Shown piece by piece: positions 5,279-58,968 of a DNA stretch of 64,000 nucleotides (position 1 is its first letter; each line of letters begins with the position of its first letter). The stretch is from Escherichia phage vB_EcoM_ULIM3, in the sequence record OQ850289; one strand, given 5' to 3'. Below the pieces are notes generated by a model. The model saw only the letters and a list, made by a program, of their open reading frames with translations. It did no database searches and was not told where the DNA came from. The translations under genes and the position numbers were made by a program.

Positions 5279-6451
5279 ATGGCAGTAGGTGAAATTCAAA
5301 TTAGTGCCTTGCCTCAAGCATCCTTACCAATTGACCTTAGTGATATCTTCCATCTTAAGCAGGGTATTGAGGATAAGAGGTGTACTCTTGAGCAATTACT
5401 TGCTCCACACGCAAGCCTAAGAAATAACCCTCATGGTGTTACTAAAACACAAATTGGTTTAGATAATGTTATTAATGCTCTTCAGTTAGTCGCTGAAAAT
5501 AACTTATCAGATATTGTTAATGTAGCTGAGGCAAGAGCAAATCTACAGATTATGTCTTCAGAAGAGGTTAATAACCTTGTCCAGCAACATATCAAGGACA
5601 AGAGTAACCCACACAATACAACTAAGGCACAGGTTGGTTTAAGTAATGTTCAGAACTGGACAACATCTAATCTGTATAACGAAGATGCAGATAAGTATGC
5701 TACAGCAAGAGCAGTAAATAACTTGTACAAGGCTGTTCAGGCTTCTTATCCAGTAGGTACTATCCATCTTTCTATGAACTCTGCAAACCCTTCCACATAC
5801 TTAATTTGTGGAGGTACTTGGGAGTTAGTTTCAAAAGGCAGGGCATTGGTTGGCTATGACTCTGATACAAGACCAGCAGGTTCTGTATTTGGCGCTTCAA
5901 CTGTCACTTTGTCAGTTAATAACATACCTCAGCACTCCCACTCTGTGTCTCTTAGCGGTGGTGGTCACACTCATAATGCAACTGTGTCAATTTCAGCTTT
6001 TGATTATGGGACTAAGACTACAAACTCTTTTGACTATGGGACAAAAGCTACTAACACAACTGGTAACCATACACACAGTGTGTCAGGTAACACTAGCACC
6101 AATGGTACTCACAACCATGATGTGTATCCTAGAGAAAATGATGGCACTGGTAATGCTGTGGCTGACTCTGATGGTGGTGGTGCAAGAAGGACATCAAGGA
6201 CTTCTAGTGATGGTGCGCACTCACACAGCTTTAACGTCACATCTGGTGCATCAGGTGACCACAGCCACACGGTTGGTATTGGTGCTCACAGTCATACAGT
6301 TGGTATTGGTTCACATACGCATAGTGGCACTGTAACAGTTTCTTCTTCTGAACATACACATAGTGGCAATACAAATAGTGTTGGTGGAGGTCAGGCAGTT
6401 AATATTGAACAGCCATCCTTCGTACTGTATGTATGGCAGAGAACAGCTTAA
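5279..6451 (+). CDS. tail fibre protein with C-terminal HxH repeats
   Basis: 390 aa; C-terminal third has repeated H-x-H motifs (HTHS, HSHT, HNHD) and FDYGTK repeats; terminator follows. Confidence 0.75.
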   Translation: MAVGEIQISALPQASLPIDLSDIFHLKQGIEDKRCTLEQLLAPHASLRNNPHGVTKTQIGLDNVINALQLVAENNLSDIVNVAEARANLQIMSSEEVNNLVQQHIKDKSNPHNTTKAQVGLSNVQNWTTSNLYNEDADKYATARAVNNLYKAVQASYPVGTIHLSMNSANPSTYLICGGTWELVSKGRALVGYDSDTRPAGSVFGASTVTLSVNNIPQHSHSVSLSGGGHTHNATVSISAFDYGTKTTNSFDYGTKATNTTGNHTHSVSGNTSTNGTHNHDVYPRENDGTGNAVADSDGGGARRTSRTSSDGAHSHSFNVTSGASGDHSHTVGIGAHSHTVGIGSHTHSGTVTVSSSEHTHSGNTNSVGGGQAVNIEQPSFVLYVWQRTA

Positions 6452-6497
6452 TTTCTTTACAGGGGCTTTATAGCCCCTTTTAAGAGGAAAATTTATA

Positions 6498-13139: not shown

Positions 13140-13480
13140 CTTCCATACCAAACCTCACCTGACCTCGCCTAACCCTACCTTACTCCACCATACAGCACCT
13201 TATTAAAACACCCTGTTTAAAGACCTTTTAAAAAGGTAAGTCTCATTTTAATGTAGCTGAGACTAACTACCCATACCTCACCCTACCAGACCCTACCGAA
13301 CATCACTTAAAAACCCTCTTAGAAGACTCTTAAGTGATGTAATCGAATTTTAATGTAGCTCCGATTAACTACCCATACCTCACCTCACCCAACCATACCA
13401 TGCCTTGCCAGACCGCACCTTACCTCATTAAAAGACCCTCTTAAAAGACCTTTTAAAAAGGAGCCTCCGAAGAGGCTACC
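13140..13480 (-). repeat. non-coding repeat region (purine/GGT-rich on - strand) with conserved ~150 bp element
   Basis: No ORF; contains 7 bp inverted repeat AGTCTCA..TGAGACT and 10 bp inverted repeat CATCACTTAA..TTAAGTGATG; element recurs at 14720-14895. Confidence 0.6.
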
Positions 13481-13488
13481 TAGTCAAC

Positions 13489-13929
13489 TTAGAAAGGTTT
13501 TCTACGTTGCTTGTTAATGTTAGCTTTCATAGCAGCTAAATGGTTTTGCTGTTCAATCAGTCGTGAACGTTCTTGATGACTAAGCGCCATAGTGTTCACA
13601 TTCTCAATTGCTTGAGTGGCTTGCTTTAAAGCTCGACCAATCTTACCAGACATTTTGCGTTTTGCAATAGTTGCTTGATGCTTAGGTTCAACCACACGAT
13701 AACCAACACCCATTGAAGCAACCAGATAAATCTTCTCTTCTTTAAGAAGCTTTTCAATAAACTTCTCAAGTCGGTTTAGACGTGTAAGTGCATAAGCCTT
13801 CATTTCATCTTCGTACTTAACAATGTCACCTTGATAAGTTGGCTTCACAATACCTAAGAAGGTGTCCATCTCGGAATGTGATACAGTGTCGCCGTAACTA
13901 AACTTTGCTGCTAATGCTTTTGTATTCAT
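13489..13929 (-). CDS. hypothetical protein
   Basis: 146 aa ORF flanked by repeat regions. Confidence 0.55.
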   Translation of the reverse strand: MNTKALAAKFSYGDTVSHSEMDTFLGIVKPTYQGDIVKYEDEMKAYALTRLNRLEKFIEKLLKEEKIYLVASMGVGYRVVEPKHQATIAKRKMSGKIGRALKQATQAIENVNTMALSHQERSRLIEQQNHLAAMKANINKQRRKPF

Positions 13930-13931
13930 AA

Positions 13932-14537
<606 letters not shown>

Positions 14538-14589
14538 TTAGTTGATTGTTAAGTTGTTTGTAAAGAACCCTCAACAGAAGACTCTTTAG

Positions 14590-14900
14590 AAACTTGGTAG
14601 ATTTTTAACGTGGCTACTACCATCCACCCATACCTCACATCACCATACCATACCATACCATACCATACCATACCTGACCGGACCTAACCAAACTCCACAG
14701 CACCATACATCACATCACACAACCTTATTAAAAGACCCTGTTTAAAGACCCTTTAAAAAGGTAAGTCTCATTTTAATGTAGCTGAGACTAACTACCCATA
14801 CCAAACAGCACCGCACTATGCCTTACCCCACCTCACCGAGCCTCGCCCCACATCACTTAAAAACCCTTTTCAAAGACTCTTAAGGGATGTTGGTGAGTAC
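14590..14900 (-). repeat. non-coding repeat region, second copy of the conserved element plus (CATAC)6 microsatellite
   Basis: No ORF; 14720-14895 near-identical to 13195-13345; pentanucleotide CATAC x6 at 14644-14673. Confidence 0.6.
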
Positions 14901-46051: not shown

Positions 46052-46066
46052 TAAGTAATTTCTTAA

Positions 46067-49700: not shown

Positions 49701-50486
49701 ATGGGTATTGTAAAAATCATCAAAGGTGATATCTTTGATGCCTTTGATAAAGGCAAATTTGATATCATTGGTCATGGTTGCAACTGTATGAATTTCATGG
49801 GTGCAGGTATTGCAGCAACTATTTCTAAGCGTTATCCAAAAGTGTATGATACTGACACAGAAGTTTACCTGTTTGCAGGTGGCATTCGTCACAAACCCTG
49901 TGAAAATTTACTAGGTAATTTCTCTGTAGCACGTTTAAAACAAGGCCGTATAGCTAACCTTTACACCCAACTTCATACTGGTAAAGATGCCCGATACAGT
50001 GCTTTAGAGTCATCTTTGAAACAGCTTAACAGATACTGTGAAGTTAACCAGTTGAAGAAAGTTGGTCTACCTATGATTGGTGCAGGTATCGGTGGGCTTG
50101 ACCCTCAAGCTGTCACAGTTATCATTAATCAGGTGATGAAGAGTGTAGATGTTTATCTGTATGTCTATGAAGCAAAAATGTATAATGAGTTACACTCAGG
50201 TTGGAAAAACTACTGTGAACCAGAATACTTTGCAGGTGTAGTTGTGTTCACAGATAACGAAGTTACCCTCTTCAGACGAAGAAAAGGTAAGATACATCAA
50301 AGTAACCCTCCGGTTGAAAAGATGTCTCTGAGTAACGCTCTAGTTACCCACCTGTCGAAGAGCAATCACAGGATTGCAGTAACATTTGGCAGTGATGCAG
50401 ATACTTATATCTATGCAAGAACTGATGAGGATATCGAGACAGTTTTCTCTTCACCAGAAGTTACCTTCTTAGACGCAAAGAACTAA
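49701..50486 (+). CDS. putative macro-domain protein (ADP-ribose binding/processing)
   Basis: 261 aa; N-terminal IIKGDIFDA ... IIGHGCNCMNFMGAGIAATISKRYP resembles macro domain signatures. Confidence 0.5.
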   Translation: MGIVKIIKGDIFDAFDKGKFDIIGHGCNCMNFMGAGIAATISKRYPKVYDTDTEVYLFAGGIRHKPCENLLGNFSVARLKQGRIANLYTQLHTGKDARYSALESSLKQLNRYCEVNQLKKVGLPMIGAGIGGLDPQAVTVIINQVMKSVDVYLYVYEAKMYNELHSGWKNYCEPEYFAGVVVFTDNEVTLFRRRKGKIHQSNPPVEKMSLSNALVTHLSKSNHRIAVTFGSDADTYIYARTDEDIETVFSSPEVTFLDAKN

Positions 50487-50557
50487 GAAACTCTGTAGAA
50501 TATTCACAATAGACCAAGCCTTTCTTATCTGGTAAATTTTTCAGGTAAGGAGGCTTT

Positions 50558-50753
50558 TTCATTTCAGAATTGTGCAGGTAGATTTCTATAGAGAAACCTG
50601 TAGAGAAAATATTGAACTCCAAAGAGAAAATTCATTTTCAAACTGTGCAGATAATCTCCAAAGAGCTTTTTCATTTTCAAAACGTGCAGACCCCGCTCAG
50701 GTCGGGCAAGAAAAATCATTTTAGATTTGTGCAGGTAGGTTTTTATAGAGAGC
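50558..50753. repeat. four direct iteron-like repeats
   Basis: Core TCATTT(T/C)(C/A)(A/G)A(A/T)(T/C/A)(T/C)GTGCAG(G/A)(T/C) at ~50558, 50631, 50670, 50714; copies 1 and 4 share ~38 bp. Confidence 0.6.
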
Positions 50754-50761
50754 CAGACCAA

Positions 50762-50792
50762 CCCCTCTCCCCCTCTTACTCCCCCTCTCCCC
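50762..50792 (-). other. G-quadruplex-forming motif (C-rich on + strand)
   Basis: + strand CCCC-TCT-CCCCC-TCTTACT-CCCCC-TCT-CCCC, i.e. four G4-5 tracts on - strand. Confidence 0.55.
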
Positions 50793-50914
50793 AAAAGTCA
50801 AGAGAAAAATTTGTAGCGGATTGAAAAATAATTCTTGATTTGTGTTCTGTTTTGTGGTAGTCGTGTGCGCCCGTTTCATTACAGTTTTGCCAAAAATATT
50901 TTTAAAATTTTTTC

Positions 50915-50974
50915 TTGACTCTTTGAACGTGGTTATCTAGTATTTGCATCAACGGGGAGGGAATGACCTTCCCC
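50915..50974 (+). promoter_or_regulatory. early promoter cassette 1 with 5' leader stem-loop
   Basis: TTGACT-17-TAGTAT, then GGGGAGGG-AATGA-CCTTCCCC hairpin and conserved RBS (CTGGAG-9-ATG). Confidence 0.6.
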
Positions 50975-51006
50975 ACTAAATAAAGTCCTAAACTGGAGGT
51001 TCAAAA

Positions 51007-51387
51007 ATGGCATATCGCGCACCTAAATTCATCAATAAAGACAACTTTCGCAACGCACTGGAGAAGTCACTTGATGAAAATTTTAAAGGTAACATTATCG
51101 TTGTTCACGCATTCAATTTTAAGTATGATGTAAACGGGAATAGAATCAACCATTACACGGCAACCATGTTAGATGGTACACTATCAAGTGAAAAAGCCGT
51201 ACTGAATGCACTAGCAGGACGCGGAAAAGTATTAGTAAGATGCGATAAGCGACGTTATCAGGGTGGCGCATATGGTTATGATGATGCTGTTTATCATCTT
51301 GAAAATATGGGCTATAAAGTAGAAAAAGCTGGGGTATCGCAAATCATCGGGAGCGATGGTTATGTAACAATCTTCAAAATTAACTGA
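51007..51387 (+). CDS. hypothetical early protein
   Basis: 126 aa ORF directly after promoter cassette. Confidence 0.55.
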   Translation: MAYRAPKFINKDNFRNALEKSLDENFKGNIIVVHAFNFKYDVNGNRINHYTATMLDGTLSSEKAVLNALAGRGKVLVRCDKRRYQGGAYGYDDAVYHLENMGYKVEKAGVSQIIGSDGYVTIFKIN

Positions 51388-51388
51388 T

Positions 51389-51477
51389 AAAGTACTTTAC
51401 AAGGGGCTTATAGTTCAATAGAGTAAGCCCCAGATAAAGAGCTTTACCACTCAATCCTAAATTGGAGAATCTGAAAA
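51389..51477 (+). promoter_or_regulatory. class B intergenic element, copy 1
   Basis: AGTACTTTACAAGGGGCTTA..TAAGCCCCAGATAAAGAGCTTTACCACT..GGAGA..ATG; hairpin with TTTACA-17-TAGAGT embedded. Confidence 0.5.
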
Positions 51478-51771
51478 ATGGCTATTATCAAAAACGTTGT
51501 AATTACTGCAAAAACTCGTGATGACGCTCGCGTTATGGCTAAAAAGTTATGCGGGAAAGTTGTTGACAATGGGAAAAAATCTGCTGTAAGATGGGGCGTA
51601 AAGGTTGATAAACAGTTGAAGTTAAAAAATTCACCGATAAACCTTTTTACATGTGTAAACACTATCGGGAAGACAAATGTATACACGAAAAAGGCATACA
51701 TTAGACGCGTAGCATTAACATCCCCCATTCGTACAATGAGAGGTTATGCAAAGCTGAAAATTAACAAATAA
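51478..51771 (+). CDS. hypothetical early protein
   Basis: 97 aa ORF after class B element. Confidence 0.5.
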   Translation: MAIIKNVVITAKTRDDARVMAKKLCGKVVDNGKKSAVRWGVKVDKQLKLKNSPINLFTCVNTIGKTNVYTKKAYIRRVALTSPIRTMRGYAKLKINK

Positions 51772-51856
51772 AGTACTTTACAGGGGGCTTAAAAGTTGAT
51801 ATCTTAAGCCCCAGATAAAGAGCTTTACCACTTAATCCTAAACTGGAGATTCAAAA
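51770..51856 (+). promoter_or_regulatory. class B intergenic element, copy 2
   Basis: Same conserved element with GGGGGCTTAA..TTAAGCCCC hairpin. Confidence 0.5.
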
Positions 51857-52369
51857 ATGAAAACTGTAGACGCTACCTTTGAAGTTGTAAAAGAAAAATT
51901 TTCCATCATCTACGAAGCGGTAAATTGCTACGAAGCAAGCCATAATCTTGATAATTGGGAGTTTACAGATGACCATCAAGGCGGTGTGACTGTTAAAAAT
52001 CCTAACTGTCAGCGTAATGATTTTAAATATGCAATCCCTTTGCATTACAGCCTTAAACAGCTTTCAAGTGACTATGCAAAACAAGGCCGGGAAAATCCAT
52101 CAAAAGAGGCTTACGCAAGCTTACAAAAAGAACTAGAAAGAGATTTAGAGGCTTCAGAGTACAACCTTGCCGCGAAAGTTGTGGATGCAAATGGTCAAAC
52201 AATTTTAGACAGTTTTTATATTGGCTACGCTTTTGATTGGTGCTATAGTGACGGCGATGATTTAGAGGATAGACTAAAAGAAGAGGTGAACAATTCAGAC
52301 GCAGAATCTGAAGTATTAGAACGTTTGGAATCACTAAAAGATTCAGTGATGAATATCTTTAAGAACTAA
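51857..52369 (+). CDS. hypothetical early protein
   Basis: 170 aa acidic ORF. Confidence 0.55.
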   Translation: MKTVDATFEVVKEKFSIIYEAVNCYEASHNLDNWEFTDDHQGGVTVKNPNCQRNDFKYAIPLHYSLKQLSSDYAKQGRENPSKEAYASLQKELERDLEASEYNLAAKVVDANGQTILDSFYIGYAFDWCYSDGDDLEDRLKEEVNNSDAESEVLERLESLKDSVMNIFKN

Positions 52370-52374
52370 ATAGA

Positions 52375-52461
52375 TTTCTTTACACGGGGTTATCAAGCTG
52401 GTAGGATAGCCCCAGATAAAGAGATTTATCAAATAAAGCCCTTAAACTAGGAGATTCTAAA
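52375..52461 (+). promoter_or_regulatory. class B intergenic element, copy 3 (divergent)
   Basis: GGGGTTATC..GATAGCCCC hairpin then AGATAAAGAG and RBS. Confidence 0.45.
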
Positions 52462-52758
52462 ATGAAATTATCAAATCAAGTGCGTGAAAATCTAAGCAAA
52501 TTACTCAACAAAATTGATTTCATTGAAACATCAAGGAATAATCATGATGTTATGGAATGGTTACACGGCAAAATAAAAGGCCGTCGTGTAGTGATTTGCT
52601 TATGGAACAGTTGCAGGGAGTATAAAAAACCTGTATTGCAAGTTAATATCTATGATGATACTTTTAAAAGTCCTGTAAAGTCTAAAAGCGATTTATTAGA
52701 ATCCTATGAGATAACTGTAAATGGCAAAGTATCACGTAAAGAGGAAACACCATGTTAA
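52462..52758 (+). CDS. hypothetical early protein
   Basis: 98 aa ORF. Confidence 0.5.
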   Translation: MKLSNQVRENLSKLLNKIDFIETSRNNHDVMEWLHGKIKGRRVVICLWNSCREYKKPVLQVNIYDDTFKSPVKSKSDLLESYEITVNGKVSRKEETPC

Positions 52759-53084
52759 TGACTGGTATCACTGCAATCATTGCCATTTTCGCGCTATATA
52801 AGGCATATAAAGCCTATAATCTAGCAAATAAGGCAATCACACAGCAGGTTAGTAATAGCCTTGTAGAAAGCTTTCTAGGGCGCCTCAGTGATGAGCAAAT
52901 AAAGCGGCTAGAGATGAGCTTCAGATATAAAGCGAAAACCTATCAGATAAGTGACATCTTCAAAGATAATTTTCAGTTAGTTGATGATTATAATTCTCTG
53001 ATAAATGCTTTAAATGTCAGTGACTTAAAAGACTACTACGCTGTAATTGTTCAAGAATTGAGCAAACGAAAACAAAACTGTTGA
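52752..53084 (+). CDS. hypothetical early protein with N-terminal TM
   Basis: 110 aa ORF; hydrophobic N-terminus; stop overlaps -35 of next cassette. Confidence 0.5.
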   Translation: MLMTGITAIIAIFALYKAYKAYNLANKAITQQVSNSLVESFLGRLSDEQIKRLEMSFRYKAKTYQISDIFKDNFQLVDDYNSLINALNVSDLKDYYAVIVQELSKRKQNC

Positions 53085-53140
53085 CACTGGTTTTTAGATA
53101 GATTAAATTACACATCAACGGGGAGGGAATGACCTTCCCC
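53081..53140 (+). promoter_or_regulatory. early promoter cassette 2
   Basis: TTGACA-17-TAAATT then GGGGAGGG..CCTTCCCC hairpin; ~95 bp near-identical to 53942-54037. Confidence 0.6.
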
Positions 53141-53172
53141 ACTAAATAAAGTCCTAAACTGGAGATTCCAAA

Positions 53173-53445
53173 ATGTATACTACTAACAACGGTCGCACCT
53201 TAAACGTAACCCTACGCCACTATGTGAACGGTGTAATGCACTTCGAGGATTTACAAGCTGAACAGCACATTTTGGATTGGCAAGTTGCAGGACTCCAAAA
53301 AACTGCTACAGGATACGGGAAAAAGATTCCAACCAGTTGGAAAGTATACTACGAAGGACGTTTGCGCAGAATTTATCAAGATGTGCAAAGCAATAGCGCA
53401 TCGAGTTACATTATAGTAAAAGGCAAAAAACTGCATTTAATGTAA
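53173..53445 (+). CDS. hypothetical early protein
   Basis: 90 aa ORF. Confidence 0.5.
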   Translation: MYTTNNGRTLNVTLRHYVNGVMHFEDLQAEQHILDWQVAGLQKTATGYGKKIPTSWKVYYEGRLRRIYQDVQSNSASSYIIVKGKKLHLM

Positions 53446-53516
53446 AGTACTTTACAAGGGGCTTATAGTTCGATAAAGTAAGCCCCAGATAAAGAGCTTT
53501 ACTACTCAATCCTAAA
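53445..53516 (+). promoter_or_regulatory. class B intergenic element, copy 4
   Basis: GGGGCTTATAGTTCGATAAAGTAAGCCCC hairpin and conserved flanks. Confidence 0.5.
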
Positions 53517-53936
53517 TTGGAGAACTTAAAAATGGCTATTAATAACCGTGAATTATCAATGTTAAAAGCACGTTTGACCGTTAATCGAATCAACATTATG
53601 ACATCATCAGCGCCTGATGAGACATTGCACAACATTATCGGAAAGATTCAAAGCGTTATTTTAGACGTTGAAAACGTAAAAAGTTCATTGGCTGACGTTG
53701 CAGCAGGTATCACGCTAGACGGTGCGCAATATGAAATGTCCGACATGTTAGGCAAATCAAAGGTAATGAATAAAGAGCTTGATTTAAAGATGTTCCGATT
53801 TGCTGTTAAAGTATGGCTATCCGTCGAGTATGACGCTAATTTTGCAATCGCTGATTTCTTTGCCACTTGGTTACAACGTAATTTGACAAATCACGATTTT
53901 CGTGATGTCTGTGATGCAATTTATGCAGAACTCTAA
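53517..53936 (+). CDS. hypothetical early protein
   Basis: 139 aa ORF. Confidence 0.55.
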   Translation: MENLKMAINNRELSMLKARLTVNRINIMTSSAPDETLHNIIGKIQSVILDVENVKSSLADVAAGITLDGAQYEMSDMLGKSKVMNKELDLKMFRFAVKVWLSVEYDANFAIADFFATWLQRNLTNHDFRDVCDAIYAEL

Positions 53937-53945
53937 AAAATTTTG

Positions 53946-54005
53946 TTGACACTGGTTTTTAGATAGATTAAATTACACATCAACGGGGAGGGAATGACCT
54001 TCCCC
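53946..54005 (+). promoter_or_regulatory. early promoter cassette 3
   Basis: TTGACA-17-TAAATT then hairpin; duplicate of cassette 2. Confidence 0.6.
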
Positions 54006-54037
54006 ACTAAATAAAGTCCTAAACTGGAGATTCAAAA

Positions 54038-54241
54038 ATGGCTATTATTAATGGTTTAACCATTGAAACTACACACATCAAAGATATCAAAGTTGGTGAT
54101 ATAGTCCTTTCCCACGGCGTAGAAAAAACTGTCACTGCAAAGGATATCAAAGAGGATTCTTTCATGGGTAGGACTCTCTTCGGTGATTCTTATTGCTTAG
54201 GCTATCTTGCAGTTTTAAAAGTTGTCAAAAATAACAAATAA
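54038..54241 (+). CDS. hypothetical early protein
   Basis: 67 aa ORF. Confidence 0.45.
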   Translation: MAIINGLTIETTHIKDIKVGDIVLSHGVEKTVTAKDIKEDSFMGRTLFGDSYCLGYLAVLKVVKNNK

Positions 54242-54327
54242 AGTACTTTACAAGGGGCTTAAAAGTTGATAACTTAAGCCTCAGATAAAGAGCTTTACCA
54301 CTAAATCCTAAACTGGAGATTCTAAAA
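54241..54327 (+). promoter_or_regulatory. class B intergenic element, copy 5
   Basis: Conserved element, hairpin with one mismatch (GCCTC). Confidence 0.45.
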
Positions 54328-54576
54328 ATGATGAACTACTTTAACATTCCCGATACCTGTAGATTATTGACACAAGAAGAAAATTTGGGTAAACCTTTCA
54401 TTTACCACATGCCAGATAACACGGCAAAAACTTATAGTTACAATGTTAACCGTTTCACCGCATACGCTGCAAAGAACGGCTATAGGTTGGTTACTCAAAA
54501 AGTAATGCTGGTTACAACTGCTGGCGAGATTCCTACAGTTGCAGTCAAACTAGTTTTCTCAAAGAAAGTTAAATAA
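54328..54576 (+). CDS. hypothetical early protein
   Basis: 82 aa ORF. Confidence 0.5.
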   Translation: MMNYFNIPDTCRLLTQEENLGKPFIYHMPDNTAKTYSYNVNRFTAYAAKNGYRLVTQKVMLVTTAGEIPTVAVKLVFSKKVK

Positions 54577-54661
54577 AGCACTTTACAAGGGGCTTATAGT
54601 CCGATAAAGTAAGCCCCAGATAAAGAGCTTTACCACTAAATCCTAAACTGGAGATTCAAAA
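54577..54661 (+). promoter_or_regulatory. class B intergenic element, copy 6
   Basis: GGGGCTTATAGTCCGATAAAGTAAGCCCC hairpin and conserved flanks. Confidence 0.5.
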
Positions 54662-55204
54662 ATGAAATGTTTTCACGGAACTACTCAAGAAAATTTCCTC
54701 AACCTGATTAATAACGGTGATAAACCATCGGGCGCATGGAATTGTTCGGATATGGACGGCAATTTTTACGTGTATCCAGAAAATAAAATCTATGGCGACG
54801 ATGATGAAGAGATAACATCGGAAGGTATTCAGCAAGCTCTAGGCAATGCCACTATTACGGCGGCCTTCCAGATGAAAACCCAAAATATTGTTATCTTAGA
54901 ACTCGATATTCCAGAGGATGAGCTAAATGATGATTATTCTTGTGATAATATGTCGAGTGTAGCAAGTTTTACAGAGTACTTTGATGTAAATTGGATTAAA
55001 AAGGTCTATACAACAGAGTTTAACGCTATGTATTCGCCTTTTTGTCTTCCTTCACTGGATAACCCAAATATGAACTATCTTGATGAGACATTAGAACTAC
55101 TTGCTAAAAGTGTTCAACAGTCGGACAGTATTCAGGTTTTTTGTGACATCATGGATACACTGACAGGAAACATTGCAGAAGAGGATTTAAAGAGCTTTTT
55201 CTAA
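54662..55204 (+). CDS. hypothetical early protein
   Basis: 180 aa acidic ORF, followed by terminator. Confidence 0.55.
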   Translation: MKCFHGTTQENFLNLINNGDKPSGAWNCSDMDGNFYVYPENKIYGDDDEEITSEGIQQALGNATITAAFQMKTQNIVILELDIPEDELNDDYSCDNMSSVASFTEYFDVNWIKKVYTTEFNAMYSPFCLPSLDNPNMNYLDETLELLAKSVQQSDSIQVFCDIMDTLTGNIAEEDLKSFF

Positions 55205-55270: not shown

Positions 55271-55504
55271 ATGCTTACAACCGTTTACCTTATCCTTTCT
55301 ATTTGTAATGGCCATTCATGTGATTTTAAAGGGCTTGAGGAGTTCACAGGAAGTAAAGAAAATGCTATTCAAGTTTGCCAGATAGCAAGACAAGACTATC
55401 CCGCTAGTGATGATATACAATGTTACTTTAAGACAGAAGATGAAGACGGTATCTATTTTGACAGCGTAGATGGTCAGTATGAAATTATCATTGAAAAAGA
55501 CTAG
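55271..55504 (+). CDS. hypothetical early protein
   Basis: 77 aa ORF. Confidence 0.45.
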   Translation: MLTTVYLILSICNGHSCDFKGLEEFTGSKENAIQVCQIARQDYPASDDIQCYFKTEDEDGIYFDSVDGQYEIIIEKD

Positions 55505-55561
55505 ACAAGCCTGATAAAAATCTGTAAATTGTCAATCAACGGGGAGGGAATGACCTTCCCC
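55502..55561 (+). promoter_or_regulatory. early promoter cassette 4
   Basis: TAGACA-17-TAAATT (TGn extended -10) then GGGGAGGG..CCTTCCCC hairpin. Confidence 0.55.
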
Positions 55562-55595
55562 ACTAAGTACAATCCTTAAACTAGGAGATTCAAAA

Positions 55596-55937: not shown

Positions 55938-56065
55938 TCAATAACTTACAAAAAACTTTTAAAAAAGTGTTGACAATACCCATTGACATTGGTAACTTTG
56001 TTCGAGGGGGTTATCTAAAAGGGATTCACTTAAAAGATTCTTTATAGATAAGCTCAAAAAATTAC

Positions 56066-56124
56066 TTGCAATCAACTATCAAAACAAGTAAATTACTAAT
56101 CAACGGGAAGGCAATAACCTCCCC
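56066..56124 (+). promoter_or_regulatory. early promoter cassette 5 (variant hairpin)
   Basis: TTGCAA-17-TAAATT then GGGAAGG-CAATAA-CCTCCCC hairpin. Confidence 0.55.
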
Positions 56125-56156
56125 ACTAAATAAAGTCCTAAACTGGAGATTCTAAA

Positions 56157-56687
56157 ATGAACAAATTTCAAGCTATCAACTTCATTCGTTCAAATGCTGT
56201 AATGTCTAAGCCTGTAAAAGATACATACGAATTCCGTTGTAATGGGGTACATTTCGCAACAATCACCAAATCAGAAAACGGGGCTTATTACGTTCATCGT
56301 CGTAATGTCTCAACCGTTGTAGTCTCTCACTTTATGCAAGCTGTAGCGGAATTATTACCGTTATTCTTAGAGATTTATCTAGATGAGTGTAAAAACGTTC
56401 ACAACCACGTTAAAAGCCTTTTAAACGGTTATAAAATGGCTTATGAACGCTCTATCAAGTCCTTAAACAAGTTTTACAATGCACCTGCAAATACTGTTTC
56501 AATGGCTTATGATGTAAACGGTGAGTTAGTTAGTCTCTTTAAAGTGGAAGAAATTAAGCTGTATAATTTACGTCCTAGTGGTTACTCTAAGACTCTTGGT
56601 GAAGGTTTATCATTTAATATCAAGAACTTAGAAAAAACTTTAAAAGACATTGAAAAAGATATTGACGAGATAATCAAAAGTCTGTAA
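56157..56687 (+). CDS. hypothetical early protein
   Basis: 176 aa ORF. Confidence 0.55.
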   Translation: MNKFQAINFIRSNAVMSKPVKDTYEFRCNGVHFATITKSENGAYYVHRRNVSTVVVSHFMQAVAELLPLFLEIYLDECKNVHNHVKSLLNGYKMAYERSIKSLNKFYNAPANTVSMAYDVNGELVSLFKVEEIKLYNLRPSGYSKTLGEGLSFNIKNLEKTLKDIEKDIDEIIKSL

Positions 56688-56721
56688 ATTGTCAATCAAC
56701 GGGGAGGGAATGACCTTCCCC
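56662..56721 (+). promoter_or_regulatory. early promoter cassette 6
   Basis: TTGACG-17-TAAATT then GGGGAGGG..CCTTCCCC hairpin. Confidence 0.6.
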
Positions 56722-56753
56722 ACTAAATAAAGTCCTAAACTGGAGTTATCAAG

Positions 56754-57017
56754 ATGGAAAACGTAGAATTAACCACACTTTTACAAATTGCAACTGACAA
56801 AGAAGATGTAGCACTGTTTCACCGTATCGAAAGCGATTTATTCAATGGTGAAATCATCAAAGAATCTTATGAAGTTGTCGGATTCAAAGATGGTAAAGCG
56901 TTTGGCTTTTTTGACCTCGACAAAGGCAACGCTGTCACAAAGTATGATGTTGTATCTTGTGAGATTCTTACAAAATACAACGAAAAAAGGCTTGCAACAT
57001 ACGCCAATATGCAGTAA
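56754..57017 (+). CDS. hypothetical early protein
   Basis: 87 aa ORF. Confidence 0.5.
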   Translation: MENVELTTLLQIATDKEDVALFHRIESDLFNGEIIKESYEVVGFKDGKAFGFFDLDKGNAVTKYDVVSCEILTKYNEKRLATYANMQ

Positions 57018-57049
57018 ATTACTAATCAACGGGAGGCGATAACCTCCCC
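56992..57049 (+). promoter_or_regulatory. early promoter cassette 7 (variant hairpin)
   Basis: TTGCAA-17-TAAATT then GGGAGG-CGATAA-CCTCCC hairpin. Confidence 0.55.
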
Positions 57050-57083
57050 ACTAAATAAAACCCTTAAACTAGGAGATTCAAAA

Positions 57084-57332
57084 ATGGCAACTATCCGCGC
57101 TACTGTCAATGCCTATGGCTGTTATACTCTGGACGTTAAATTCGATATTGGTGGAACTGATGAGTGTTTTTCATTAGTGAAGACAGTTATCAAACAAGTT
57201 ATTCCAGATTATAACCCTACTGATGACTTCTGGAAAGATGCTGTAAAAGAGGCATTAAACGACGAGCATCACTATCATTACTGGGGTGACTTGATTGTTT
57301 CCCTGTACTACAATAAACAAGGTTACAACTAA
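57084..57332 (+). CDS. hypothetical early protein
   Basis: 82 aa ORF followed by tandem hairpins. Confidence 0.5.
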   Translation: MATIRATVNAYGCYTLDVKFDIGGTDECFSLVKTVIKQVIPDYNPTDDFWKDAVKEALNDEHHYHYWGDLIVSLYYNKQGYN

Positions 57333-57342
57333 TCGACGCAAC

Positions 57343-57397
57343 GGGGCTAAATAGCCCCAGATACCTCAACAGCCCCTGTTTAAAGGGGCTTTTTTAC
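57343..57397 (+). terminator. tandem stem-loops ending in an intrinsic terminator
   Basis: GGGGCT-AAAT-AGCCCC then AGCCCCT-GTTTAA-AGGGGCT followed by TTTTTT. Confidence 0.7.
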
Positions 57398-57399
57398 GT

Positions 57400-58940
57400 C
57401 TATTGAATCCTTATACAATCCCTTTCCAGAATCTTATCAGACCTTAAAAGCAATAACTCTATAGTCTACTCTATAACCTCTTATCAAATCAACTTAAATA
57501 AAAGCCAATAACCCCAGAAAGGGGATGGCCCATTTAAACGCTCTATAAAGCTCTATAACAGCCTTATCAACCTAACTTAAGGGATTGCATTACCTCACCC
57601 TAAAAAGCCCTTTATAAAGCTTCTCAGAGCCTTAAAAGAATCTTATAAGGGTGTAAGCTTTATCATCTCATTAGTATTCTTGTGAATAACTAAACAACCC
57701 CTTGATAGTCACTAAAAAGTATGTTATAGGGGGCTTTAAAGTTACTTTGAAGTAGCTTAAAAGTTACGTAAAAGAGGCTATAAAGTTACGTAAATGCTAG
57801 CCCCCTTAACATTTTCTTAACAATTTCTTAACAATCCCTACATAGTTATGCTTTTAAGGCACTTGTTAGCAACTTGTTAGCCCCTTGTTAAATCTCTGTT
57901 AAGACCACGTAAAAGCCTTGTAAGAGTCTTTGACATAGCCTTAAAAGCTCCTGTAAAGCCCTATAAAGAGGTATCTGTACAGTTGGGGGATAGATACTAG
58001 GAAGAGGTTTAAAAGAGGCTATAAAGAGCTATAGAGAGCTTTTAAGAGGTATGTTTAAGGAATCACTAAGAAGCAAAGGGAACGATAAGAAAAGAGTAGT
58101 GACCATGTTAATAGCTTGTTAAAAAGATTAAACACTTGTTAAAAACTTGTTAATTATCTTAACAAAATAACTCTTAAAAATTAACTTGTTAGCTCTTGTT
58201 AGTCATCTGTTAAGAGACTATAAAGACCATGTATCGACTGTTAAGAACTTGTTACAGCCTTGTTAGTTCTGTTAAGAATCTGTTAAGACCTTTGAAGAGT
58301 TGTTAAGAAGATGTGAGAGCTGTTAAGAGATTGTTAAGGATATTTTAAAATTTTGCAAAGTACTTGTAAGGGAGCTGTTAAGGGCTACCAAGCAGATATA
58401 CATCTTCTACAGATATTTTTGAGTTCCTTCAAAGACCCTAAAAAATGACTTGATAGTCCTATTTTATAAAAATTTTAAGATTCTGAATAATTACCTATAC
58501 AGTCTTTTAAAAATACAGGCAGAAACAGGCTTATAAGATACCTTGTTAGTACCGTGTTAGACCTTGTGAGATAAGGTCTGTAAAGATATTCCTGTTAAGT
58601 TTGTTAAAACAGTCTATATAGAGGCTTAGTATTCCCTAGTGAACACCTATAGAGAGTGTCATAGGTAACATAGAGATTAAGAGGTGTATAGGAGCTTCTA
58701 AGAAGGTGTAGAGAGATGGTTAAGGTGATTGTATAGGTTGTTAAGAAGGCTTGTTAGAAGAGTGTTTAGAAGGGCTATACAGAGGGGCTATTAAGACCAC
58801 TAGATAGTTACTAAGATACTATATAGTACTATATAACTATATATAGAGAGTAAGATTAAGAAGGTTGTTAAGAAGGGTAGATATTTTATTCACATATGAT
58901 GGTGACCCAGAGGTTGGGACAACCGATAAAATTTTATAAA
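57400..58940. repeat. ORF-free region dense in short degenerate motifs
   Basis: No ORF >60 aa on either strand; >25 copies of (C/T)TGTTA(A/G)(G) and CTATAAAG-like motifs; purine-rich + strand; between convergent units. Confidence 0.7.
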
Positions 58941-58968
58941 AATTAAAAAGCCCCCGATTAAGGAGGCT
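58938..58968 (-). terminator. putative intrinsic terminator for the minus-strand cluster
   Basis: Minus-strand reading: GAGCCTCC-TTAATC-GGGGGCT followed by T-rich run. Confidence 0.45.

What the first reader, a model, noticed from the sequence alone, without database searches (positions are those of the whole stretch)
51389..54661. Second family of conserved intergenic elements with a hairpin embedded in a promoter-like spacer
Six copies of AGTACTTTACA-AGGGGCTTA..TAAGCCCC-AGATAAAGAGCTTTACCACT-(RBS) separate consecutive small genes. The GC-rich hairpin lacks a U-tract, so it is not a canonical terminator; it sits between TTTACA and a TAnnnT hexamer at 17 nt spacing. Possible roles are a structured promoter, an RNase III-type processing site or an attenuator. 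Alternation with the first cassette family suggests two regulatory classes in the same gene array.
Basis: seen in the sequence. Interest (0 to 1): 0.5.

Follow-up and report, generated by a model that had tools for sequence, protein, structure and literature searches.

The report
Promoter-plus-hairpin gene-cassette junctions in phage
Six copies of a ~92-bp spacer between small early genes of a Felix O1-like phage most likely each combine a host-type promoter, a long RNA hairpin and a ribosome-binding site, much like the PeSL cassettes of T4-like phages, so this is a new example of a known design, not a new kind of element.

Summary
Six copies sit where stated, each filling the gap from one gene's stop codon to the next ATG. 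The window is a Felixounavirus. The same element occurs at 1,351 places in 287 phage records, all apparently Felix O1-type (Ounavirinae) wherever taxonomy was checked, and not in bacterial genomes. The Felix O1 paper lists it only as a "57 bp direct repeat", and the wV8 record as DR_1/7/9.

Two copies of the palindrome TAAAGnnCTTTA flank the GC hairpin and pair with each other. This gives a ~59-nt two-tier sense-strand hairpin: 98% of cells paired, six pairs with compensatory changes, and 85 G·U against 19 unpaired cells.

A sigma-70-type promoter is superimposed on it: TTTACA, 17-18 bp, then TAnnnT, in 72 of 73 distinct cores. The TA stays fixed in an otherwise variable loop.

Single-gene insertions and deletions between related phages begin and end inside these elements.

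Best reading (0.6): a PeSL-type composite cassette. It restarts transcription, while its hairpin attenuates, processes or stabilises read-through RNA, and it serves as recombination homology. Main rival (0.22): a T7-like RNase III site with no promoter.

All functional claims are inferred. No transcript mapping for these phages was found. Verdict: new member of a known kind; modest interest.

The parts
51388..51480 (+). F2 cassette copy 1, from the TAA stop (a second in-frame stop after TGA 51385-51387) to the ATG of the 97-aa gene
   Evidence: Coordinates. Lower-stem 5' half TAAAGTACTTTA 51388-51399. -35 TTTACA 51396-51401. Upper hairpin 51403-51431 (9 bp, -13.5 kcal/mol). -10 TAGAGT 51419-51424. 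Predicted +1 about 51432. Lower-stem 3' half TAAAGAGCTTTA 51435-51446. SD GGAG 51464-51467. ATG 51478-51480. The 81-nt fold gives -23.2 kcal/mol, z -3.9.
51769..51859 (+). F2 cassette copy 2, from the stop of the 97-aa gene to the ATG of the 170-aa gene
   Evidence: Coordinates. Palindromes 51769-51780 and 51816-51827. -35 51777-51782. Upper hairpin 51784-51812. -10 TATCTT 51800-51805, preceded by TGa. Predicted +1 about 51813. SD 51845-51848. ATG 51857-51859. Fold -21.9 kcal/mol, z -3.6.
52371..52464 (+). F2 cassette copy 3, the divergent variant, between the 170-aa and 98-aa genes
   Evidence: Coordinates. Lower-stem halves TAGATTTCTTTA 52371-52382 and TAAAGAGATTTA 52417-52428. These form an uninterrupted 13-bp stem with a compensated G:C to U:A pair. 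-35 52379-52384. Upper hairpin GGGGTTATC/GATAGCCCC 52386-52413. -10 TAGGAT 52402-52407, preceded by TGg. Predicted +1 about 52414. SD 52450-52453. ATG 52462-52464. Fold -25.1 kcal/mol, z -4.4.
53443..53534 (+). F2 cassette copy 4, between the 90-aa and 134-aa genes
   Evidence: Coordinates. Palindromes 53443-53454 and 53490-53501. -35 53451-53456. Upper hairpin 53458-53486. -10 TAAAGT 53474-53479. Predicted +1 about 53487. SD 53519-53522. ATG 53532-53534. Fold -24.9 kcal/mol, z -4.7.
54239..54330 (+). F2 cassette copy 5, between the 67-aa and 82-aa genes
   Evidence: Coordinates. Palindromes 54239-54250 and 54286-54297. -35 54247-54252. Upper hairpin 54254-54282, with a G.U pair from CCTC. -10 TAACTT 54270-54275, preceded by TGa. 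Predicted +1 about 54283. SD 54315-54318. ATG 54328-54330. Fold -18.8 kcal/mol, z -3.5. This copy and copy 6 bracket the 335-bp stretch (the 82-aa gene plus one element) that is absent from phage Meda.
54574..54664 (+). F2 cassette copy 6, between the 82-aa and 180-aa genes
   Evidence: Coordinates. Palindromes TAAAGCACTTTA 54574-54585 and 54621-54632. -35 54582-54587. Upper hairpin 54589-54617. -10 TAAAGT 54605-54610. Predicted +1 about 54618. SD 54650-54653. ATG 54662-54664. Fold -23.3 kcal/mol, z -4.6.
50915..51009 (+). First F1 cassette of the array, shown as an example of the companion family. Other F1 copies start near 53081, 53946, 55502, 56054, 56662 and 57000.
   Evidence: F1 has a TTGACA-type -35, a 17-nt spacer, a TAAATT or TAGTAT -10, then a hairpin GGGGAGG..CCTTCCCC at about +4, then ACTAAATAAAGTCCTAAACTGGAG and the ATG. 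It shares its 3' module with F2 and replaces F2 at the same gene junctions in related phages.
57343..57396 (+). End of the gene array: a degenerate F1/F2-hybrid hairpin GGGGCTAAATAGCCCC-AGATAC (57343-57364), followed by a canonical terminator (57371-57396)
   Evidence: Only here is the hairpin followed by a real stem plus T-run terminator. This shows what a canonical terminator looks like in this phage and that F2 lacks one.

Best explanation
F2 is a portable, roughly 92-bp 'cassette junction' of Felix O1-type phages (Ounavirinae). It is built like the PeSL (promoter-early stem-loop) elements of T4-like phages.

DNA level (inferred). F2 carries a host sigma-70 promoter. The -35 is TTTACA, the spacer is 17-18 bp, and the -10 is TAnnnT, often with an extended TGn. 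An A-rich stretch upstream includes the stop codon of the preceding gene. Transcription is predicted to start at the A of AGATAAAG, just 3' of the GC stem. The new mRNA would therefore have an unstructured leader of about 45 nt that ends in the array's common GGAG Shine-Dalgarno sequence.

Sense-RNA level (shown by folding and covariation; its role is inferred). A transcript arriving from an upstream F1 or F2 promoter folds the same DNA into a two-tier hairpin of about 59 nt. The parts are:
- a lower A/U stem of 11-12 bp, formed by two copies of TAAAGnnCTTTA, whose 5' base is the upstream stop codon;
- a 3x3 internal loop (CAN/AGA);
- an upper G/C stem of 8-10 bp;
- a terminal loop of 9-13 nt.

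The hairpin has no U-tract. I infer that it marks and protects the 3' end of the upstream message, by attenuation, by blocking 3' exonucleases, and possibly by RNase III cleavage as in T7 early mRNA. Each small gene would then be an insulated expression unit.

Genome level (shown by comparison). The cassette flanks each small gene as a direct repeat of at least about 90 bp. It therefore serves as homology for recombination that inserts, deletes, duplicates and swaps single-gene cassettes.
For: Real and conserved:
- 6 copies in the window.
- 209 copies and 73 distinct cores in 58 loci.
- 1,351 places in 287 phage records. Felixounavirus, Mooglevirus and Kolesnikvirus were confirmed among the fetched records.
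- No true copy in one genome each of 185,579 bacterial and archaeal species.

Hairpin:
- The MFE fold is the same two-tier structure in all 6 window copies and 4 Erwinia-phage copies, at -18.8 to -27.6 kcal/mol with z -3.5 to -6.5.
- RNAalifold predicts the same consensus independently.
- On 47 distinct sequences, 98.0% of cells pair, against 15-60% when partners are slid by 1-3 columns. Six pairs carry compensatory changes, including GGGG/CCCC to GGUG/CACC in Kolesnikvirus and G:C to U:A in the lower stem. The covariation score is 0.170 against 0.073, exceeded by 0 of 500 shuffles.
- 85 cells are G.U or U.G wobble pairs and only 19 of 940 cells are unpaired. The fold therefore works on the + (sense) strand only, which points to RNA rather than duplex DNA.

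Promoter:
- TAnnnT lies 17 nt (64 cores) or 18 nt (8 cores) after TTTACA in 72 of 73 distinct cores. TGn precedes it in 41.
- Length changes are absorbed downstream of the hexamer (discriminator of 6-8 nt).
- In the 11-nt loop, the two TA positions are fixed in 53 of 55 cores while the neighbouring positions carry 3-4 different bases.
- The 30 nt upstream are 76% A+T, against 62% for the window.
- The same geometry of -35, 1 nt, hairpin, then a -10 inside the loop and 3' arm recurs with unrelated hairpins and no lower stem. Examples are the Kolesnikvirus 'F3' (TTGCAA or TTTACA, N17, TGnGAYTAT) and Silverhawkium (TTGACA-aGGGGTGTAAAAGCCCC-TACTAT).
- TTTACW-N17-TAYWAT is the published PeSL promoter consensus of the T4/PST pair (PMC4122927).
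- In Felix O1 RT-PCR data, genes on either side of an F2 peak at different times. ORF19 peaks at 25 min and ORF20 at 5 min; ORF16 at 5 min and ORF17 at 25 min (PMC3185647). This evidence is crude.

Shuffling:
- F2 joins at least 19 different gene pairs across genomes.
- Indels are exactly one gene plus one element, as in junctions g2-g4-g7 against g2-g7, g4-g7-g5 against g4-g5, and g11-g26-g3 against g11-g3.
- The alignment of the window with Meda puts both ends of a 335-bp indel inside F2 copies.
- One genome has an 'empty' cassette, with the ATG fused directly to the next F2.
- The same hairpin variant occurs at many junctions, and one junction carries up to 14 variants.
- All ten flanking genes lack any Pfam match and belong to PHROGs of unknown function.
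Against: - No transcript 5' or 3' end, reporter or cleavage data exist for this element. A full-text search found no Felixounavirus transcription-start mapping.
- The -35 hexamer is confounded. CTTTA of TTTACA is also the 3' strand of the first palindrome and pairs in the lower stem, so its invariance does not prove a promoter.
- The -10 hexamers are weak (TATCTT, TAAGAT, TAACTT). The simple promoter scan scores them 9 of 12, no better than many chance sites in the region (51 found against 37 expected).
- Lower-stem covariation is thin. Six of 11 pairs never vary and only 2 pairs show double changes. The copies are related by descent and gene conversion, so the shuffle statistics overstate independence.
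- The strong conservation of AGATAAAGAGCTTTAC could also reflect a protein-binding site.
- Terminator or attenuator activity of a hairpin without a U-tract is assumed by analogy with the PeSL reporter result (PMC2839356). It was not tested here.
Confidence: 0.6

Rival explanations
1. F2 is a pure RNA element, a T7-type processing and stability signal. The array is transcribed as polycistronic early RNA from the strong F1 promoters. Each F2 hairpin is cut by host RNase III in or near its internal loop. The upstream mRNA keeps a protective 3' hairpin and the downstream mRNA begins near AGAUAAAG. The -35 and -10 resemblance is incidental or secondary.
For: - The two-tier hairpin has about 20 bp in two stems separated by a 3x3 internal loop.
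- Folding the T7 early intergenic regions that hold the RNase III sites R0.3, R0.5, R1, R1.1 and R1.3 gives a similar layout: a lower stem of 4-8 bp, an internal loop or mismatch, and an upper stem of 9-13 bp, at -18 to -24 kcal/mol. That these regions are the RNase III sites is established knowledge; the record as fetched does not annotate them.
- Pairing is strand-specific through G.U pairs.
- The invariance of TTTACA and AGATAAAGAGCTTTA is fully explained by the lower stem.
- F1 supplies near-consensus promoters upstream.
- The reverse strand gives weak, sub-threshold matches to a miRNA-precursor model. These reflect only the long-hairpin shape.
Against: - This reading does not explain why exactly two loop positions (TA) and the spacing of 17-18 nt from TTTACA are fixed while the rest of the loop varies.
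- It does not explain why TGn is enriched.
- It does not explain why the same -35/-10 geometry recurs on unrelated hairpins that have no lower stem.
- The terminal loop (9-13 nt) is larger than in the T7 sites (3-5 nt).
- RNase III antideterminant positions were not evaluated.
- The two readings are not exclusive. T7 itself places promoters in the same intergenic regions.
Confidence: 0.22
2. F2 is a DNA-level operator. The two 12-bp palindromes TAAAGnnCTTTA, 47 bp apart and bracketing the core promoter, and/or the GGGG..CCCC inverted repeat, bind a dimeric phage or host regulator that switches the early genes off or on.
For: - The palindromes are perfect in 5 of 6 copies. They occur only in F2 within the 64 kb window, with 10 matches against 0.11 expected.
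- Six of 11 lower-stem pairs never vary, as expected for a sequence-specific site.
- The sites overlap the -35 and roughly +4 to +15, which are classic repressor positions.
Against: - The changes that do occur are compensatory between the two sites, not within a site. For example TAAAT..CTTTA is paired with TAAAG..ATTTA, which breaks each palindrome but keeps the RNA pair.
- The upper arms change sequence freely while keeping complementarity, and they tolerate G.U only on the sense strand. A duplex-DNA site would not do this.
- No candidate regulator was identified.
Confidence: 0.06
3. F2 is a functionally neutral or selfish repeat. It would be kept uniform and spread only by recombination and gene conversion, with promoter-like and hairpin features as passengers.
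For: - Hairpin variants are shuffled among junctions, and one junction carries up to 14 variants. This shows frequent conversion.
- Near-identity of many copies could reflect homogenisation rather than selection.
Against: - The element persists across three genera at 76-85% identity, with the stem maintained by compensatory changes.
- It always occupies the full stop-to-ATG gap, in one orientation, and supplies the only Shine-Dalgarno sequence for the downstream gene.
- Conversion alone does not produce covariation or fixed spacing.
Confidence: 0.05
4. F2 is a canonical Rho-independent terminator.
For: It has a GC-rich stem of 8-10 bp directly after a stop codon.
Against: - No U-tract follows either the upper stem (AGAUAAAG) or the full hairpin (CCACUAAA).
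- The terminator scan calls the true terminators at 46065, 47861, 50520 and 57371 but none of the F2 copies.
Confidence: 0.02

Closest known systems
PeSL (promoter-early stem-loop) cassettes of T4-like phages RB49/phi1, T4/PST and KVP40/nt-1 (Arbiol et al. 2010, PMC2839356; Comeau et al. 2014, PMC4122927)
   Same: [quoted passage not shown]
- It has an A/T-rich region and then a sigma-70-type promoter. The T4/PST consensus TTTACW-N17-TAYWAT matches F2.
- Its stem-loop is usually G-run...C-run, lies between the hexamers or overlaps the -10, and tolerates G.T pairs.
- It is clustered in a region of small ORFan early genes.
- Indels between close relatives have their end points in the elements.
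   Different: - The host phage belongs to another subfamily (Ounavirinae, not T4-like), and there is no sequence homology.
- F2 has an added lower stem made of two mutually complementary 12-bp palindromes, which gives a two-tier hairpin of about 59 nt. The PeSL papers I read do not describe this.
- Promoter activity, terminator activity and mini-circles were shown experimentally for PeSLs. None of these has been tested for F2.
RNase III processing signals of the phage T7 early region (R0.3, R0.5, R1, R1.1, R1.3)
   Same: - Both are repeated intergenic irregular hairpins between consecutive early genes.
- Both have a lower stem, an internal loop and a GC-rich upper stem of about 9-10 bp, with no U-tract and similar predicted stability.
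- Promoters lie in the same intergenic regions in T7.
- Leaving a 3' hairpin on the upstream mRNA is the established function in T7.
   Different: - There is no sequence similarity.
- The F2 internal loop is symmetric (3x3) and its terminal loop is larger.
- In F2 the promoter is superimposed on the hairpin rather than lying beside it.
- Cleavage by RNase III is untested.
Promoter-coupled terminators of bacteria (Fletcher et al., bioRxiv 10.64898/2026.08.19.745784)
   Same: One stretch of DNA serves both to end the upstream transcript and to start the downstream one. These elements lie between tandem genes and shorten the intergenic regions.
   Different: There, the hairpin DNA doubles as the -35, and the terminator T-tract lies just upstream of the -10, with the termination site about 10 bp before the start site. 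F2 has no T-tract, and its hairpin spans the spacer, the -10 and the discriminator.
The '57 bp direct repeat' of the Felix O1 genome paper (PMC3185647) and repeat_region features DR_1/DR_7/DR_9 of the phage wV8 GenBank record EU877232
   Same: This is the same sequence element. CTTTACATGGGGCTTAAAAGTCTGTAAAGTAAGCCCCAGATAAAGAGCTTTACCACT lies between ORF15/16 and ORF19/20 of Felix O1.
   Different: Those sources list it only as a direct repeat. They mention no hairpin, promoter, palindromes or role in gene shuffling. The Felix O1 paper states that the promoters and temporal control of this region are unknown.

Membership tests
PeSL (promoter-early stem-loop cassette) | Sigma-70-like -35 and -10 hexamers about 17 bp apart | tested here: met
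   TTTACA, then 17 nt (64 cores) or 18 nt (8 cores), then TAnnnT, in 72 of 73 distinct cores from 209 copies. TGn precedes the -10 in 41. All six window copies fit. This is a sequence match only; activity was not measured.
PeSL (promoter-early stem-loop cassette) | A stable stem-loop placed between the promoter hexamers, overlapping them or adjacent to them | tested here: met
   The upper stem of 8-11 bp starts 1 nt after the -35 and ends at the predicted +1. It folds at -6.3 to -17.5 kcal/mol and is supported by covariation.
PeSL (promoter-early stem-loop cassette) | The element spans from the upstream stop codon and an A/T-rich region to the SD and start codon of the next gene | tested here: met
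   The stop codon TAA is the first triplet of the element. The 30 nt upstream of the -35 are 76% A+T, against 62% for the window.
PeSL (promoter-early stem-loop cassette) | Clustered in a variable region of small genes of unknown function, with indels between related phages ending in the elements | tested here: met
   Gene-order maps of 17 genomes and the junction table. A 335-bp indel has both ends in F2. All ten flanking proteins lack Pfam matches and fall in PHROGs of unknown function.
PeSL (promoter-early stem-loop cassette) | Demonstrated promoter and terminator/attenuator activity, and mini-circle formation by recombination between elements | not testable with these tools
   These need reporter fusions and inverse PCR, as in PMC2839356.
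PeSL (promoter-early stem-loop cassette) | Described host range: T4-like myoviruses | tested here: not met
   The window is a Felixounavirus in the subfamily Ounavirinae. I therefore file F2 as working like a PeSL and as a new lineage of that kind, not as a homologue.
T7-type RNase III processing signal | An irregular hairpin with about two helical turns of dsRNA in upper and lower stems separated by an internal loop | tested here: met
   11 + 9 bp with a 3x3 loop. T7 sites folded with the same tool have the same layout.
T7-type RNase III processing signal | Lies inside a polycistronic transcript, so that transcription reads through it | tested here: inconclusive
   F1 promoters lie upstream, and no terminator lies between them and the F2 copies. 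No transcript data were found.
T7-type RNase III processing signal | Specific cleavage by RNase III, and absence of antideterminant base pairs | not testable with these tools
   This needs in vitro cleavage, or a comparison of rnc mutant and wild-type hosts.
Rho-independent (intrinsic) terminator | A GC-rich hairpin immediately followed by a U-tract | tested here: not met
   The hairpin is followed by AGAUAAAG, and the scan does not call it. True terminators of the same phage do have T-runs (46065, 47861, 50520, 57371).
Any curated RNA family (Rfam 15) | A match at or near the gathering score | tested here: not met
   Only sub-threshold chance hits were found (mir-980 on the reverse strand at 19-22 bits against a gathering score of 47; snoZ278).

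The most novel reading that the evidence does not exclude
The F2 hairpin is a genuine RNase III (or other endonuclease) processing signal that has been fused base-for-base with a sigma-70 promoter. Processed read-through RNA and newly initiated RNA would then acquire essentially the same 5' end (AGAUAAAG...), and every upstream message would end in the same protective hairpin. That would make F2 a self-contained 'insulator' that equalises each gene cassette whether or not it is read through. The paired TAAAGnnCTTTA palindromes would be its signature. This design has not been described for PeSLs or for T7.
Probability: 0.2. Interest if true: 0.55.

Novelty: new member of a known kind. Interest (0 to 1): 0.35.

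Why it matters
- Felix O1-type phages are widely used for Salmonella and E. coli typing and biocontrol. Their own genome paper says that early promoters and temporal control are unknown. These cassettes, with the F1 family, would account for the expression signals of about a dozen accessory early genes.
- They extend the PeSL idea beyond T4-like phages, which suggests convergent evolution of a general phage solution. In that idea, one compact element gives a gene its promoter, its insulation and its mobility.
- Knowing the recombination-prone junctions helps explain why the accessory-gene content of therapeutic Felix O1-like phages varies.
- The cassettes offer natural, compact parts for phage engineering: a promoter, a 3' hairpin and an RBS in 92 bp.

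Tried and rejected
- Canonical terminator: rejected. There is no U-tract and the scan does not call F2.
- Known RNA family: rejected. Rfam gave only sub-threshold chance hits.
- Host-derived REP-like repeat or prophage element: rejected. A relaxed pattern scan of one genome for each of 185,579 bacterial and archaeal species gave 7 single matches in unrelated taxa. None had the hairpin or the palindromes.
- Six short or unrelated IMG/VR contigs matched the first loose pattern (for example TTTACAAAGGGCAAGTTATTTGCCCTTGATAAAG). They have hairpins of a different length and no 17-nt spacing. I treated them as chance or unrelated and did not follow them.
- A second promoter reading was considered. 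In it, TAAAGT at the stop codon acts as the -10, as in truncated F1 copies, with a -35 in the upstream coding sequence. I found no consistent -35-like hexamer in the two copies I inspected by eye. In Erwinia phages the motif becomes AAAAGT or TAAAGA. Set aside on that partial check; not tested systematically.
- GATAAAG as a phage-specific -10-like box shared with F1 (ATAAAG): not supported. It lacks the T at -7, and its conservation is explained by the lower stem.
- KhF1 'terminator' annotations under the first BLAST hit turned out to be the F1 hairpins, called on the opposite strand. They are not F2.
- Literature searches for Felixounavirus transcription-start or RNA-seq data found nothing usable. 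The wV8 paper does not discuss the repeats.
- The Felix O1 RT-PCR time classes do not sort by F1 against F2. ORF16 and ORF20 (after F2) peak at 5 min and ORF17 (after F2) at 25 min. ORF19 (after F1) peaks at 25 min and ORF21 (after F1) at 5 min. There is thus no support for two temporal classes.

Full report
**Observation.** The region 51389-54661 contains six + strand copies of the described element.
- A strict pattern (TTTACA-N-GGGG...CCCAGATAAAGAG) finds five, with 0 expected in 100 shuffles.
- The decamer AGATAAAGAG finds all six, plus one unrelated coding hit.
- An nhmmer profile built from the six finds no further + strand copy in the 64 kb window.
- Each copy occupies the entire gap between the stop codon of one small ORF and the ATG of the next. 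The spans are 51388-51480, 51769-51859, 52371-52464, 53443-53534, 54239-54330 and 54574-54664.
- Copy 3 is a diverged variant. Copy 5 has one G.U pair in the stem.
- TTTACA, 17 nt, TAnnnT is present in all six. The window has 8 such matches against 1.6 expected.
- No T-run follows the hairpin. The terminator scan calls four true terminators nearby but none of these copies.

**What the window is, and what was already recorded.** The window is a Felix O1/wV8-like myovirus (Felixounavirus), 94-96% identical to phages KhF1, ECML-1 and ULIM8. The array lies downstream of the rII genes, at the end of an early transcription unit. It closes with a canonical terminator at 57371-57396.

The Felix O1 genome paper lists this very sequence as 'two 57 bp direct repeats' between genes 15/16 and 19/20. 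It lists the promoter part of the companion family as '39 bp repeats'. It offers no interpretation and states that promoters downstream of terminators and temporal control are unknown (PMC3185647). The wV8 GenBank record annotates the copies as repeat_region DR_1/DR_7/DR_9, and the wV8 paper does not discuss them. I found no transcription-start or RNA-seq study of these phages in the library.

**Anatomy.** Two further features emerged.

The first is a lower stem.
- The 12-bp palindrome TAAAGnnCTTTA occurs exactly twice in each of five copies, 47 bp apart, and nowhere else in the window (10 matches against 0.11 expected). Copy 3 carries a diverged version.
- The upstream copy begins with the stop codon and ends inside TTTACA. 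The downstream copy is the conserved box AGA-TAAAGAGCTTTA.
- Because both are self-complementary, they are complementary to each other.
- Folding 81-nt sense RNAs gives the same two-tier hairpin for all six window copies and for four copies from an Erwinia phage. The layout is 6 bp, a 1x1 mismatch, 5 bp, a 3x3 internal loop (CAN/AGA), a 9-bp GC stem and a 9-13-nt loop.
- The energies are -18.8 to -27.6 kcal/mol, with z -3.5 to -6.5.

The second concerns the -10 hexamer. It is not downstream of the hairpin. Its T-A lies in the loop and its last 1-3 bases lie in the 3' arm, and the rest of the 3' arm is a 6-7-nt GC-rich discriminator. The predicted start is the A of AGATAAAG, just after the upper stem. 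A transcript started here would therefore not contain the hairpin. Only RNA arriving from upstream would.

**Comparative evidence for the hairpin.**
- A pattern scan of IMG/VR returned 52 loci, most of them from about 25 genomes of about 87 kb.
- Adding GenBank phages from three genera gave 209 copies with 73 distinct cores.
- BLAST finds the element at 1,351 places in 287 phage records. Felixounavirus, Mooglevirus (Citrobacter and Shigella hosts) and Kolesnikvirus (Erwinia hosts) were confirmed among the fetched records.
- It is absent from one genome per bacterial or archaeal species. Seven loose matches there have neither the hairpin nor the palindromes.
- On 47 distinct sequences, 98.0% of cells form standard pairs in the two-tier structure, against 15-60% when the 3' partners are slid by 1-3 columns.
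- Six of 20 pairs show compensatory double changes. Examples are G:C to U:A in the third pair of the upper stem in all Kolesnikvirus copies, A:U/U:A/U:G at the top pair, and G:C to U:A in the lower stem.
- The covariation score is 0.170 against 0.073 for shuffles, with 0 of 500 reaching it.
- RNAalifold independently returns the same consensus.
- 85 cells are G.U or U.G wobble pairs and only 19 of 940 are unpaired. These wobble pairs would be C.A mismatches on the other strand, so the structure is selected on the sense strand. That points to RNA rather than to a duplex-DNA protein site or a cruciform.
- One caveat applies. The copies are related by descent and by gene conversion, six of the 11 lower-stem pairs never vary, and the lower stem rests on two covarying pairs.

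**Evidence for the promoter.**
- In 72 of 73 distinct cores, TAnnnT lies 17 nt (64 cores) or 18 nt (8 cores) after TTTACA.
- Insertions are tolerated only up to 18, and deletions fall downstream of the hexamer.
- In the 11-nt loop, the TA is fixed in 53 of 55 cores of the main length class. The other two are the 18-nt-spacing cores, shifted by one. The neighbouring columns carry three or four different bases.
- TGn, the extended -10, precedes the hexamer in 41 cores.
- The 30 nt upstream are 76% A+T, against 62% for the window.
- The invariance of TTTACA is confounded by its role in the lower stem. The geometry, however, recurs where there is no lower stem. One case is a third cassette type in Kolesnikvirus: TTGCAA or TTTACA, 1 nt, GGGGTTAcGGTTATGAGACTATAACCCC, giving TGnGAYTAT at 17 nt. 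Another is a Mooglevirus cassette, TTGACA-aGGGGTGTAAAAGCCCC-TACTAT.
- TTTACW-N17-TAYWAT is the promoter consensus reported for PeSLs of the T4/PST pair.
- Felix O1 RT-PCR classes show that genes on either side of an F2 can peak at different times. ORF19 peaks at 25 min and ORF20 at 5 min. ORF16 peaks at 5 min and ORF17 at 25 min. This fits independent control but is crude end-point data.
- Individually the hexamers are weak, and the simple scan rates them no better than many chance sites.

**Evidence for cassette shuffling.**
- I clustered the ORFs of the array in 17 genomes and mapped F1 and F2. Differences between genomes are whole units of 'one gene plus one element'. Examples are g2-F2-g4-F2-g7 against g2-F2-g7, g4-F2-g7-F2-g5 against g4-F2-g5, and g11-F2-g26-F2-g3 against g11-F2-g3.
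- F2 joins at least 19 different gene pairs.
- Aligning the window with phage Meda puts both ends of a 335-bp indel (the 82-aa gene plus one element) inside F2 copies 5 and 6.
- One genome carries an 'empty' cassette in which the ATG of one F2 runs straight into the next F2.
- The same hairpin variant sits at many different junctions, and one orthologous junction (g0-g1) carries 14 variants. This indicates frequent exchange among copies.
- F1 and F2 replace one another upstream of the same gene in different phages and share the 3' module ...ACTAAA..TCCTAAACTGGAG. This argues against two gene-specific regulatory classes.
- All ten flanking proteins lack Pfam matches and belong to PHROGs of unknown function.

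**Mechanism I commit to (confidence about 0.6).** F2 is a composite cassette of the PeSL type.
- Shown: the repeat, its conservation, the sense-strand two-tier hairpin, the fixed promoter-like geometry, and the association with single-cassette indels.
- Inferred: host RNA polymerase initiates at about the A after the upper stem.
- Inferred: read-through RNA from upstream folds the hairpin, which attenuates transcription and/or blocks 3' exonucleases and/or is cut by RNase III, giving each upstream message a stable 3' hairpin.
- Inferred: the terminating ribosome, whose stop codon is the first triplet of the lower stem, transiently opens that stem.

The main rival (about 0.22) is that there is no promoter and F2 is purely a T7-like RNase III processing signal. 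T7 early intergenic regions folded with the same tool have the same layout and energy. This rival explains the conserved boxes, but not the fixed loop TA, the spacing, or the recurrence of the geometry on hairpins without a lower stem. The two readings are compatible, and T7 also has promoters in those intergenic regions.

A DNA operator (0.06) is disfavoured by compensatory and G.U changes. A neutral repeat (0.05) is disfavoured by cross-genus covariation. A canonical terminator (0.02) is disfavoured by the missing U-tract.

**Comparison with known systems.** F2 meets every sequence-level feature that defines PeSLs (PMC2839356, PMC4122927).
- It spans stop codon to ATG.
- It has an A/T-rich upstream region and a sigma-70-type promoter.
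- It has a G-run/C-run stem-loop between the hexamers or over the -10, with G.T pairs.
- It lies among ORFans, with indels at the elements.

It differs in three ways. The host lineage is Ounavirinae, not T4-like, and there is no sequence homology. It has an extra lower stem built from paired palindromes. And it lacks any experimental test, whether reporter activity or mini-circles.

It also resembles the bacterial 'promoter-coupled terminators' of a 2026 preprint in principle, but not in layout, because F2 has no T-tract and its hairpin sits in a different position.

**Novelty and interest.** The sequence repeat itself was already recorded. Its reading as a promoter-hairpin-RBS cassette that mediates modular shuffling is, as far as the searched literature shows, new for Felix O1-type phages. 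It is a new member of a known kind rather than a new kind. The two-tier hairpin and paired palindromes are the only feature without precedent in the PeSL papers I read, and their function is open. I score interest at 0.35.

**Limits.** Everything functional is inferred from sequence. Covariation statistics are inflated by the relatedness of the copies. I did not build a covariance model, run a phylogeny-aware test, or evaluate RNase III antideterminants.

Noticed in passing
window 57400-58950: A non-coding stretch of about 1.5 kb lies after the array's terminator. It is packed with short direct repeats (CTTGTTAG / CTGTTAAGA, often 11, 20 or 31 bp apart, and CTATAAAGAG motifs). It looks iteron-like, perhaps an origin, packaging or terminal region.
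   Followed up: partly
window 50555-50850; also L056:2130-2280 (Erwinia phage Coenus): Four to five copies of TCATTTT(C/A)(A/G)A(A/T)(T/C)TGTGCAG(G/A) lie between a strong terminator (50520-50553) and the first F1 promoter. The same motif is repeated four times at the equivalent place in a Kolesnikvirus, so it is conserved across genera. A similar TGTGCAG precedes a TATAAT at about 46100.
   Followed up: partly
L056:4186-4260, 6676-6755, 7084-7155; L060 and L061 equivalents: Kolesnikvirus phages carry a third cassette type ('F3'): TTGCAA or TTTACA, 1 nt, GGGGTTAcGGTTATGAGACTATAACCCC, then GTCGAAACAAAC, an SD and the ATG. It has the same geometry of -35, hairpin and -10 as F2 but no lower stem.
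   Followed up: partly
L062:9852-9925 (Shigella phage Silverhawkium): This cassette has a consensus -35, a hairpin wholly inside the 17-nt spacer, and a good -10: TTGACA-aGGGGTGTAAAAGCCCC-TACTAT.
   Followed up: no
L004 (IMG/VR 2974556886), reverse strand about 7355-7520: An 'empty cassette': the ATG of one F2 is fused directly to the next F2 (aaaATGcTTTACA). The locus also has a tandem duplication of the 85-aa gene cassette.
   Followed up: partly
window 57343-57364: A degenerate hybrid hairpin (atcgacgcaacGGGGCTAAATAGCCCCAGATAC) has an F1-like 5' context and an F2-like 3' context. It has no promoter hexamers or palindromes and lies just before the array's real terminator.
   Followed up: no
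window 50904-51006, 53070-53172, 53935-54037, 55502-55595, 56054-56156, 56651-56753, 57000-57085: The companion F1 family has a near-consensus promoter (TTGACA-17-TAAATT) followed, at about +4, by the hairpin GGGGAGGgaatgaCCTTCCCC. This would be a 5'-terminal stem-loop on the mRNA. The -10 and discriminator of F1-type cassettes in related phages (TAAAGTACTCATCAAC; TAAATTAC.. in the window) resemble the 5' end of F2 (TAAAGTACTTTACAA). The post-hairpin segment of F1 resembles the F2 leader, which suggests common descent.
   Followed up: partly
window 13143-14890: Direct-repeat families of 70-164 nt (CC(A/T)TACC...ACCCTCTTAGAAGACTCTTAAGTGATGT) occur in 4-5 copies (families D5-D7). I did not examine them.
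   Followed up: no
window 5966-8769: Repeated coding segments, for example GTACTGGTGCACATACCCATTCAGTTAGTGGTA, which encodes His-x-His motifs, lie in two neighbouring long genes (families D8, D9, D11, D14). They probably correspond to the tail-fibre gp76/gp77 repeats mentioned in the Felix O1 paper.
   Followed up: no
L002:1-696 (phage Meda gene 120), equivalent to window 49701-50486: The 261-aa protein just upstream of the array is annotated in Meda as 'possible phosphatase, RNase III inhibitor, RNA processing', and in Sf18 and Silverhawkium as a macro-domain protein. This could be relevant if the hairpins are RNase III substrates. I did not check the annotation.
   Followed up: no
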